Positions 18,701 through 19,600 of a stretch of DNA of 64,000 nucleotides are shown here, piece by piece. Location of the stretch: NCBI RefSeq assembly GCF_056746865.1, contig NZ_CM163382.1. One strand, written 5' to 3'. Each line of letters starts with the position of its first letter. Position 1 is the stretch's first letter. Made by a program: the position numbers.

Positions 18701-19600
18701 CTGGTTGGCACCGTCTGCTACGCCAGTAAAACGAAATTCAATATTTTGACTGTCCGTATTGCTACAATCAGTCAGTTTAATGTTGAAGTCAGTCTGGTTA
18801 CTGGCACCCGTTGCTTCGGTATCAATGCCCGTGAAAGCGTTAGAAGGTACGACTGGCAGTACCACTTCAATCTGTTTCGATTCTGTAGCAACCTTACACG
18901 TCGCTTTAACCACACGACCAGTAAAGCGGATGTTTCCGCCCATCGCATCGGTGTTGCTATCCATATCGGTGAGTTTTGGATAATCAACGGTGCTCCAGTC
19001 TGTATCCGCACCACCAAATTGTGATGCATCGCCTGGCGCAGCGGTTACCGCAGTTGACATCAGCATACCTGATGCGAGTAAAACTGCGGATAAATTAGAT
19101 AGATTGAATTTCATTTATACCTTTCCTTTTGTTAAAAAATCCAAGCAATATTGGCGATTATTTTTACATTCAGCTTTAACAAGTCACATTATTTAAATGA
19201 ATAAAGCTGGTGTAGTTAACCACAGAAAAAAATAAGAGATAGAATGGCTGGAAAATATTATATGAGCTGCTTGGTAATATAACTAAAAGAATCCATGCTC
19301 GCAATGATTGACTTTATATAAAAATACAGTCATTTGAAAACAAAGAGATTTATTTTAGACAGGATAACTGAAGAGTGGGGCAATATATAAATATAATAAA
19401 TAATTTATTAGTTATTTATAATGCTTATTGTATGATACATACTCAGATGAGAATCATTATTAAAAATTAATAAATATGAATTATATATCGATACTGTCTG
19501 TAAATTGTCATGACATATCGTTTATCTGATATAAAAATGCCGTGTGCCCCTTAACGATAGCTTTGAGGGAACACACGGCAGTTATCACTTTGCAAACTTA

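What the first reader, a model, noticed from the sequence alone, without database searches (positions are those of the whole stretch)
19115..19597. Extremely AT-rich 480-bp leader upstream of the fimbrial operon, candidate silencing/control region
The interval between the major subunit start and the glgP terminator is dominated by A/T runs and short palindromic AT blocks (for example TAATAAATAATTTATTAGTTATTTATAAT around 19390-19420). Such regions are typical H-NS nucleation sites and often hold the promoter and regulatory switch for cryptic fimbrial operons. I could not find flanking inverted repeats or a nearby recombinase gene, so an invertible switch is not supported.
Basis: inference. Interest (0 to 1): 0.3.

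Follow-up and report, generated by a model that had tools for sequence, protein, structure and literature searches.

The report
AT-rich control region of Auf fimbriae
This very A/T-rich stretch is the promoter and upstream control region of a variant of the known E. coli Auf fimbrial operon, most likely kept silent by the H-NS protein as in its relative in strain CFT073, so it is an ordinary example of a familiar kind of gene silencing.

Summary
Window 19115-19597 has 28.2% GC against 50.7% for the window. No 483-bp stretch elsewhere in the 64 kb has lower GC.

The window is E. coli chromosome. The interval lies between the glgP stop codon and the first gene of a seven-gene chaperone-usher operon in the glpD-glgP gap. 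That operon is a divergent allele of aufABCDEFG. Its proteins are 64-84% identical to those of CFT073 Auf, and EAEC 042 carries the same AufA protein.

On the minus strand the interval contains:
- the glgP intrinsic terminator;
- about 230 bp at 21-22% GC that no longer aligns with the CFT073 allele;
- two overlapping sigma-70-like sites, placed 142 and 161 nt before the ATG in both alleles;
- an unstructured 5' UTR of about 140 nt;
- a strongly conserved ribosome-binding block.

Published CFT073 ChIP-seq lists every auf gene as bound by H-NS and StpA. TosR overexpression raises auf transcripts roughly 40-fold. NsrR binds at the aufA start. None of this has been measured for the window's allele, and the leader itself was not scored.

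There are no GATC sites, no recombinase gene and no inversion polymorphism in 227 genomes. This is a known kind of element and of low interest. Side notes are a T6/T7/T8 tract polymorphism and one IS5 insertion.

The parts
19598..22045 (-). glgP (glycogen phosphorylase), the last gene of glgBXCAP. It is co-oriented with the fimbrial operon and lies upstream of it.
   Evidence: Pfam Phosphorylase, E = 0. RefSeq annotation of the identical sequence in strain 118UI. 99.5% amino-acid identity to CFT073 glgP.
19533..19580 (-). Intrinsic terminator of glgP: a hairpin at 19538-19580 followed by a U run at 19533-19537. It is specific to genomes that carry auf; K-12 has a different terminator.
   Evidence: RNA fold dG -26.3 kcal/mol, z = -4.24, 0 of 200 shuffles fold as well. 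The hairpin is kept in the CFT073-type allele despite sequence changes. The K-12 sequence downstream of glgP differs from a few bases after the stop codon.
19305..19532 (.). Distal hyper-AT block (21-22% GC) upstream of the predicted core promoter. It is the most likely H-NS/StpA loading DNA and the likely target of AT-binding regulators.
   Evidence: Composition. blastn homology with the CFT073 allele stops at 19318. Yet all four homologous leaders have an AT trough of 14-25% GC at 200-400 nt before the ATG. DNA self-complementarity z = -2.65. A modest predicted curvature peak lies at 19261-19401.
19276..19304 (-). Promoter-like site A: TTGCGA, 17-nt spacer, TATATT.
   Evidence: This is the only minus-strand hit of the consensus scan and the top PWM score in the leader. 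The -10 element ends 161 nt before the ATG in both the window and the CFT073 allele (TTGCGG-17-TACATT). It lies inside the best-conserved block of the distal leader. A prediction only.
19257..19285 (-). Promoter-like site B: TAGTTA, 17-nt spacer, TATAAT. The -10 is perfect and the -35 is weak.
   Evidence: PWM rank 2 in both alleles. The -10 element ends 142 nt before the ATG in both, and TATAAT is invariant in all three alleles aligned. A prediction only.
19115..19250 (-). Predicted 5' untranslated leader of aufA, about 135-155 nt, with no significant secondary structure.
   Evidence: RNA fold z = -0.06. No Rfam match apart from a chance-level hit on the terminator. The proximal 204 nt are about 73% identical to the CFT073 allele. 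The last 35 nt or so are also conserved in Citrobacter freundii and in an unassigned metagenomic contig.
19226..19232 (-). Homopolymeric T tract (A7 on the plus strand) inside the predicted 5' UTR. Its length varies among strains.
   Evidence: It is the only indel among six window-type leaders aligned. Exact-match counts are T6 in 50, T7 in 138 and T8 in 33 of about 227 genomes. T6, T7 and T8 all occur on otherwise identical haplotypes.
19176..19179 (.). TTAA target site where IS5 is inserted in strain SCU-313, between the predicted promoter and aufA.
   Evidence: The IS5 ends GGAAGGTGCGAAC...CGCACCTTCC are flanked by a duplicated TTAA.
19101..19123 (+). NsrR-type 11-1-11 inverted repeat overlapping the ribosome-binding site and start codon. 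It differs by one base from the CFT073 site.
   Evidence: In CFT073 the NsrR ChIP-seq peak centre is 3999621, which is +3 relative to c4214. The reported motif is AAATTGAATTTCATTTATACCTT (PMC5320621). The window has AGATTGAATTTCATTTATACCTT.
19120..19129 (-). Shine-Dalgarno region (AAAGGAAAGG) of aufA.
   Evidence: Read directly from the sequence. Invariant in all homologous leaders.
18410..19114 (-). aufA-like major fimbrial subunit, 234 aa.
   Evidence: Pfam Fimbrial, E = 1.4e-21. 84% identical to CFT073 AufA. A 98%-identical protein is named 'Auf fimbriae major fimbrial subunit AufA' by a depositor. The identical protein WP_000671312.1 occurs in EAEC 042.
11920..18289 (-). The rest of the operon: aufB chaperone (17537-18289), aufC usher (14904-17495), aufD (14341-14874), aufE (13809-14333), aufF chaperone (13064-13843) and the aufG tip subunit (11920-13050).
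   Evidence: Pfam domains. Synteny with CFT073 c4207-c4214, with 64-81% amino-acid identity.

Best explanation
The interval is the cis-regulatory region of a divergent allele of the E. coli auf (aufABCDEFG) chaperone-usher fimbrial operon, which occupies the glpD-glgP gap.

Order of elements in the direction of transcription (minus strand):
1. An intrinsic terminator insulates auf from the co-oriented glgBXCAP transcript.
2. About 230 bp of 21-22% GC DNA follows.
3. Next comes a sigma-70 core promoter, as two overlapping candidate sites with -10 elements 161 and 142 nt before the ATG.
4. Last is an unstructured leader of about 140 nt ending in a strong, highly conserved ribosome-binding site.

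Proposed mechanism (inferred). H-NS, together with StpA, polymerises over the AT-rich upstream DNA and over the 37-42% GC operon body. This keeps the promoter essentially off under laboratory conditions. Expression requires counter-silencing by AT-binding proteins of the PapB family such as TosR, and is helped by a shift to 37 degrees C. NsrR bound over the ribosome-binding site and start codon may add a repressive input relieved by nitric oxide.

What is shown here: the anatomy, the composition and the conservation pattern. What is shown only in the CFT073 allele, by published work: H-NS/StpA, TosR and NsrR involvement. What is inferred: the promoter position and the transfer of these results to this allele.
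For: Identity of the operon:
- The gene order, Pfam domains and glpD/glgP flanks match CFT073 c4207-c4214.
- Protein identity to CFT073 Auf is 64-84%.
- A depositor named a 98%-identical protein AufA.

Composition:
- GC is 28.2%, the lowest in the window.
- An AT trough 200-400 nt before the ATG recurs in all four homologous leaders without sequence conservation.

Promoter:
- The two best PWM sites lie at identical distances from the ATG in both alleles, inside a conserved block.

Silencing, from published work on CFT073:
- All auf genes are in the H-NS-bound and StpA-bound gene list. H-NS occupancy is 0.24-0.69, and it falls in the hns stpA double mutant. Only 795 of 4818 genes are H-NS bound. 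glgP is not listed in sheet 1E (PMC9765446).
- auf transcripts are very low and the protein is undetected. Expression is higher at 37 than at 23 degrees C (PMC12890032).
- TosR overexpression raises aufA-G by log2 2.6-6.6 (PMC5956150).
- An NsrR ChIP-seq peak sits at the aufA start codon, and the site is conserved here with one mismatch (PMC5320621).

Exclusion of other switch types.
Against: - No H-NS occupancy or hns-mutant expression data exist for this allele or for the leader itself.
- In CFT073, aufA next to the leader has the lowest occupancy of the operon. Nucleation may therefore occur in the gene bodies.
- Matches to the 10-bp high-affinity H-NS motif (consensus recalled from memory) are not clearly above chance: 4 against 1.8 in shuffles, with a shuffle maximum of 5.
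- Predicted curvature is modest, at the 3rd-4th percentile.
- The distal half is unalignable with the CFT073 allele, so the putative TosR site mapped there cannot be transferred.
- The promoter assignment is purely computational. In AT-rich DNA the consensus scan finds no more sites than shuffles do (4 against 3.9).
Confidence: 0.6

Rival explanations
1. The AT-richness is a by-product. This would be fast-drifting non-coding DNA of a horizontally acquired island that merely contains an ordinary weak promoter. Low expression would reflect promoter weakness or a missing activator, not active silencing through this DNA.
For: The distal half shows no sequence conservation between alleles. Motif scans for H-NS, IHF, Lrp, CRP and the TosR consensus are no better than shuffles. 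Curvature is modest.
Against: The AT trough sits at the same position in four leaders that otherwise do not align. One of them is in a different genomic context in Citrobacter. H-NS/StpA do occupy the CFT073 operon. A 40-fold derepression by an AT-binding PapB-family protein is hard to explain by a merely weak promoter.
Confidence: 0.17
2. The main control element is the NsrR operator over the ribosome-binding site and start codon. On this reading auf is primarily a nitric-oxide-responsive operon, and the upstream AT-rich DNA is secondary.
For: An NsrR ChIP-seq peak is centred at +3 of c4214 in CFT073, with an 11-1-11 motif. The site is conserved here with one mismatch, inside the most conserved block of the leader.
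Against: The peak is of middling strength in that data set. NsrR motifs are themselves AT-rich. The conservation is equally explained by the ribosome-binding site and the signal-peptide codons. The passages I read from that paper report no auf expression change. The second half-site, 69 nt upstream, is not conserved here (7 of 11 bases by my own reading).
Confidence: 0.1
3. Expression is tuned or phase-varied by slipped-strand changes in the T tract at 19226-19232.
For: T6, T7 and T8 occur in 50, 138 and 33 genomes. All three occur on otherwise identical leader haplotypes. The CFT073-type allele has its own variable T tract, T9 against T6, at another position.
Against: Tracts of 6-8 nt are short for a contingency locus. 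The tract lies in the predicted 5' UTR, not in a promoter spacer or a reading frame. Homopolymer errors in long-read assemblies could account for part of the variation.
Confidence: 0.06
4. A phase switch of a known type: a fimS-like invertible promoter, or a Pap-like Dam/Lrp methylation switch.
For: Many fimbrial operons are phase variable. An 11-nt AT inverted repeat (19159-19169 and 19316-19326) happens to bracket the predicted promoter.
Against: There is no GATC in 19115-19597. No recombinase or papI/papB-like gene lies in the island or its flanks. 227 of 228 genomes are collinear, and the exception is an IS5 insertion. In the CFT073 allele the distal arm of the bracketing repeat reads TATGTGAGTAT in place of TATTTTTATAT.
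Confidence: 0.02
5. A structured cis-acting RNA leader, such as a thermometer, a riboswitch or an sRNA target hub, controls aufA translation.
For: The predicted 5' UTR is long, about 140 nt. Its 3' end is highly conserved. auf is higher at 37 degrees C.
Against: The fold is no better than shuffles (z = -0.06). There is no Rfam match. The ribosome-binding site is not sequestered in a stable helix in the predicted fold.
Confidence: 0.05

Closest known systems
aufABCDEFG operon of uropathogenic E. coli CFT073 (c4207-c4214) and its upstream region
   Same: Both lie between glpD and glgP, directly after the glgP stop codon. Gene order and domains are the same seven genes. Leader length is similar (483 against 494 bp) and so is its GC (28% against 27%). 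The hairpin terminator is of the same design. The candidate promoter sites sit at identical distances from the ATG. The ribosome-binding block is identical, and the NsrR-type site differs by one base.
   Different: The proteins are only 64-84% identical. The distal 280 bp or so of the leader is unalignable. The three hypothetical genes c4204-c4206 downstream of aufG are absent here. The T tracts lie at different positions. The regulatory data (H-NS/StpA, TosR, NsrR, temperature) exist only for the CFT073 allele.
H-NS-silenced 'cryptic' chaperone-usher operons of E. coli, for example yad (yadN promoter)
   Same: An AT-rich upstream region, very low expression in vitro, H-NS ChIP occupancy in CFT073 and no phase switch (PMC13245861; PMC3559732).
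   Different: For yad, derepression in an hns mutant has been demonstrated (more than 100-fold by reporter). For auf I found no such test. In serum, auf moved in the opposite direction to yad, going down.
pap/foc/tos regulatory regions controlled by PapB-family proteins against H-NS and Lrp
   Same: AT-rich upstream DNA, and a response to a PapB-family protein: TosR strongly up-regulates auf.
   Different: There are no papI/papB-like genes at the locus and no GATC pair. No Lrp-site enrichment was seen. Whether TosR acts directly is unknown.
IS5 insertions upstream of H-NS-silenced operons (bgl, flhDC, fucAO, glpFK); recalled from general knowledge, not tested here
   Same: In strain SCU-313, IS5 sits in the auf control region at a TTAA target.
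   Different: Here the element lies between the predicted promoter and aufA, so it may inactivate rather than activate. No expression data exist.

Membership tests
Auf fimbrial operon (aufABCDEFG) | Chromosomal position between glpD and glgP | tested here: met
   The window and strain 118UI annotation agree with CFT073.
Auf fimbrial operon (aufABCDEFG) | Seven-gene order: major subunit, chaperone, usher, two minor subunits, second chaperone, large tip subunit | tested here: met
   Pfam domains and gene order.
Auf fimbrial operon (aufABCDEFG) | Sequence identity to the CFT073 Auf proteins | tested here: met
   Identity is 64-84%, so this is a divergent allele and not the same variant. A 98%-identical protein is named AufA by a depositor.
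H-NS/StpA-silenced AT-rich promoter region | A sustained AT content far above the genome average, over at least 200 bp, at or upstream of the promoter | tested here: met
   GC is 25-28% against 50.7%, the lowest in the window. TpA steps are about 3-fold enriched.
H-NS/StpA-silenced AT-rich promoter region | H-NS occupancy in vivo | not testable with these tools
   Shown only for the genes of the CFT073 allele (PMC9765446, sheet 1E). The leader itself and this allele were not measured.
H-NS/StpA-silenced AT-rich promoter region | Derepression in an hns (or hns stpA) mutant | not testable with these tools
   No report was found for auf. Indirect support comes from 40-fold induction by TosR and higher expression at 37 degrees C.
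H-NS/StpA-silenced AT-rich promoter region | High-affinity H-NS motif (TCGATAAATT-like) or strong intrinsic curvature | tested here: inconclusive
   There are 4 matches with at most 2 mismatches, against 1.8 in shuffles. The curvature peak is only at the 3rd-4th percentile. The motif and the wedge parameters were both recalled from memory.
fimS-type invertible promoter switch | Inverted repeats bracketing the promoter, plus a tyrosine recombinase gene nearby | tested here: not met
   Only AT-rich imperfect repeats are present. The pair that brackets the predicted promoter has a different distal arm in the CFT073 allele. There is no recombinase gene in the island or its flanks.
fimS-type invertible promoter switch | Both orientations seen among genomes | tested here: not met
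   227 of 228 window-type genomes are collinear over the whole interval. The exception is an IS5 insertion.
Pap-type Dam/Lrp epigenetic switch | Two GATC sites within Lrp sites upstream of the promoter, plus papI/papB-like genes | tested here: not met
   No GATC in 19115-19597. No plausible ORFs in the interval. Lrp consensus hits equal the shuffles.
Slipped-strand contingency locus | A repeat tract in a promoter spacer or reading frame, with length variation among close relatives | tested here: inconclusive
   Length variation is present: T6, T7 and T8 in 50, 138 and 33 genomes. However, the tract is short and lies in the predicted 5' UTR.
Structured regulatory RNA leader | A stable or conserved secondary structure, or an Rfam family match | tested here: not met
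   Fold z = -0.06. No relevant Rfam hit.

The most novel reading that the evidence does not exclude
The auf control region may be modular. On this reading, a conserved core (promoter plus leader plus ribosome-binding/NsrR block) is joined to an upstream 'silencing cassette'. That cassette would be maintained for its composition and self-complementarity, not its sequence, and has been wholly replaced between alleles. The variable T tract in the early transcribed region would act as a heritable rheostat setting how easily each lineage escapes H-NS silencing.
Probability: 0.08. Interest if true: 0.45.

Novelty: new member of a known kind. Interest (0 to 1): 0.2.

Why it matters
Auf fimbriae are more common in uropathogenic than in faecal E. 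coli, but they are almost never expressed in the laboratory. The authors of the TosR study state that little is known about auf regulation.

This analysis maps the control region and shows that a second, divergent allele exists. The window-type leader is in about 4% of complete E. coli genomes, including EAEC 042. The CFT073-type leader is in about 10%. The two share promoter geometry but not upstream sequence.

That gives a concrete set of constructs for testing how H-NS silencing is set and relieved at this operon. Beyond that, the finding is a routine case of xenogeneic silencing and does not open a new question.

Tried and rejected
- Genome-contig scan with the AufA alignment. The tool chose signal-peptide patterns, and none of 107 candidates was confirmed. 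Instead I used the protein search and contig look-ups, which gave a Citrobacter freundii locus and one unassigned contig.
- The TosR consensus from PMC5956150 Table S2. The window has no match with up to 3 mismatches. Even the published CFT073 site needs at least 4 mismatches to the IUPAC string, and the window's best match (4 mismatches) is no better than shuffles. The test is uninformative.
- IHF, Lrp, CRP and H-NS 10-mer consensus scans in both alleles. Counts equal those in dinucleotide shuffles, and no positionally conserved site was found.
- Rfam. The only hit is a chance-level miRNA match on the terminator hairpin.
- Small ORFs in the interval. The longest is 42 aa starting at TTG. None is plausible, and the sequence there differs in the CFT073 allele.
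- Curvature with the wedge model. The peak is modest, and the parameters were recalled from memory, so I give it little weight.
- The original auf paper (Buckles et al. 2004) could not be retrieved. I do not know whether a transcription start was mapped there.
- A literature search for H-NS data on the EAEC 042 copy, by locus-tag prefix, returned nothing.

Full report
**What the window is**

The interval 19115-19597 lies in E. coli chromosome. It is 100% identical to many complete genomes, for example strain 118UI. On the minus strand, glgP ends at 19598. A 234-aa fimbrial major subunit gene starts at 19114.

Six more chaperone-usher genes follow the major subunit: a chaperone, an usher, two minor subunits, a second chaperone and a 376-aa tip subunit. 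Together they fill the gap between glpD and glgP.

CFT073 has the same arrangement at the same site (C_RS19915-19945, old tags c4207-c4214). The literature calls it aufABCDEFG (PMC5956150).

The window's proteins are 64-84% identical to those of CFT073, while the flanking glgP is 99.5% identical. This is therefore a divergent allele of auf at the orthologous locus. A depositor has already named a 98%-identical protein AufA. EAEC 042 carries the identical AufA protein.

The window-type leader is present in about 227 of 5426 complete E. coli genomes. The CFT073-type leader is present in 558.

K-12 has neither allele. Its sequence diverges a few bases after the glgP stop codon. It has a different terminator and the yzgL remnant.

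**Check of the observation**

- GC is 28.2%, or 25.2% without the terminator, against 50.7% for the window. No 483-bp window elsewhere in the 64 kb is lower.
- Among annotated intergenic regions it is the second lowest in GC and by far the longest AT-rich one. TpA steps are about three times as frequent as in the window overall.
- The quoted palindromic block sits at 19394-19422.
- The distal 231 nt has more self-complementarity than dinucleotide shuffles (z = -2.65). The palindromes are therefore somewhat more than a composition effect.
- The terminator is real: dG -26.3 kcal/mol, z = -4.24.

**Anatomy, in the direction of auf transcription**

1. The terminator hairpin and U run occupy 19580-19533.
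2. A block of 21-22% GC runs from about 19532 to 19305. blastn homology with the CFT073 allele ends at 19318, and a forced alignment shows only patches.
3. A conserved block holds the two best sigma-70-like sites of the leader. These are TTGCGA-17-TATATT (19304-19276) and TAGTTA-17-TATAAT (19285-19257). Their -10 elements end 161 and 142 nt before the ATG in the window, and exactly the same distances in CFT073.
4. The predicted leader is about 135-155 nt. It has no significant RNA structure (z = -0.06) and no Rfam match.
5. The last 35 nt or so, including AAAGGAAAGG, are conserved. The conservation extends to a Citrobacter freundii homologue, which lies in a different genomic context, and to an unassigned metagenomic contig.

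All four homologous leaders share an AT trough (14-25% GC) 200-400 nt before the ATG, although those parts do not align. Composition has been retained there while sequence has not.

**Evidence on function, all from the CFT073 allele**

- *H-NS and StpA.* Hustmyre et al. list c4204-c4214 among H-NS-bound genes. Wild-type H-NS occupancy is 0.24 for aufA and 0.46-0.69 for aufB-aufG. StpA values are similar, and the signal falls in the hns stpA double mutant (PMC9765446, Data set S1, sheet 1E). Only 795 of 4818 genes are classed as H-NS bound. glgP does not appear in that sheet. The table is per gene, so the leader itself is not scored.
- *Expression level.* auf transcripts are very low and the proteins are undetected. 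Levels are higher at 37 than at 23 degrees C (PMC12890032). Auf was the only chaperone-usher system that went down in human serum (PMC13245861).
- *TosR.* Overexpressing this PapB-family protein raises aufA-G by log2 2.6-6.6. The authors call TosR the first known regulator of auf and leave open whether the effect is direct (PMC5956150).
- *NsrR.* ChIP-seq gives a peak centred at +3 of c4214 with an 11-1-11 motif (PMC5320621). The window keeps that motif with one change, at 19101-19123.

**What I excluded**

- There are no GATC sites in the interval and no plausible ORFs.
- No recombinase or regulator gene lies in the island or its flanks.
- No orientation polymorphism occurs in 227 genomes.
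- One 11-nt AT repeat pair brackets the predicted promoter. In the CFT073 allele its distal arm reads differently.
- Consensus scans for H-NS, IHF, Lrp, CRP and the published TosR motif are no better than shuffles.
- Predicted curvature is modest.

**Best explanation**

This is the control region of a variant auf operon. A terminator insulates it from glg transcription. An AT-rich upstream tract and an AT-rich operon body are coated by H-NS/StpA, which silences a sigma-70 promoter about 150 nt upstream of aufA. Escape depends on AT-binding counter-silencers such as TosR and on temperature, and there may be an additional NsrR input at the ribosome-binding site.

The anatomy is shown here. The protein factors are shown only for the sister allele. 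The promoter and the transfer to this allele are inferred. I put this at 0.6.

The main rival (0.17) is that the AT-rich DNA is a passive by-product around a weak promoter. The remaining rivals are NsrR-centred control, a T-tract rheostat, known switch types and an RNA leader. Each is at 0.1 or below.

**Polymorphisms seen along the way**

- The only indel among window-type leaders is the T tract at 19226-19232. It is T6 in 50 genomes, T7 in 138 and T8 in 33. All three lengths occur on otherwise identical haplotypes.
- Strain SCU-313 has IS5 inserted at TTAA 19176-19179, between the predicted promoter and aufA.
- I have no expression data for either.

**Verdict**

The thing is a new member of a well-known kind: an H-NS-silenced AT-rich promoter region of a horizontally acquired fimbrial operon. 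The operon itself is already named. Interest is low, at 0.2.

Noticed in passing
window 18290-18409 (minus strand), between aufA and aufB: This 120-bp spacer at 26.7% GC encodes two near-perfect RNA hairpins, with 16-bp and 12-bp stems (dG -35.7 kcal/mol, z = -6.46). The arrangement resembles the stem-loops after papA and fimA, which give an excess of major-subunit message. That resemblance is from general knowledge.
   Followed up: partly
window 19226-19232: A homopolymeric T tract in the predicted aufA 5' UTR varies among strains: T6 in 50 genomes, T7 in 138 and T8 in 33. All three lengths occur on otherwise identical leader haplotypes. Long-read homopolymer errors cannot be excluded.
   Followed up: yes
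L006 1806-3003 (strain SCU-313); corresponds to window 19176-19179: An IS5 element is inserted in the auf control region with a TTAA target duplication, 62-65 nt upstream of the aufA ATG.
   Followed up: partly
window 11414-11919; L002 1889-2503; L005 2145-4459: The glpD-glgP gap exists in three forms. K-12 has the yzgL remnant and its own glgP terminator. The window type has auf only, plus a 215-nt pseudogene fragment. The CFT073 type has auf plus three hypothetical genes, c4204-c4206, which have no Pfam domain and are also H-NS bound. K-12 and the window share only the first 175 nt after glpD.
   Followed up: partly
window about 37100-40300: This is a second low-GC block (27-32% GC in 483-bp windows). 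It covers the yhhZ/tssD(Hcp-like)-yrhA-yrhD-yrhB region. yhhZ and yrhA are among the most heavily H-NS-occupied genes in the CFT073 table (0.79).
   Followed up: no
L003/L005 (CFT073-type leader), about 75-90 nt upstream of aufA; L004: The CFT073-type allele has its own variable T tract, T9 in MS15046 against T6 in MN06021, at a different position from the window's tract.
   Followed up: no
L005 4460-5590 (CFT073 aufG); L017 2461-3062 (EAEC 042 aufB): RefSeq marks CFT073 aufG as a pseudogene (internal stop) and EAEC 042 aufB as frameshifted. This suggests decay of the operon in well-studied reference strains.
   Followed up: no
window 18410-19114 (AufA, residues about 28-60): The major subunit is 234 aa, and its Pfam Fimbrial domain starts only at residue 62. 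After the signal peptide there is an extra N-terminal segment of about 30 residues (PGDASQFGGADTDWSTVDYPKLTDMD...). It is conserved between alleles and unusual for a major pilin.
   Followed up: no
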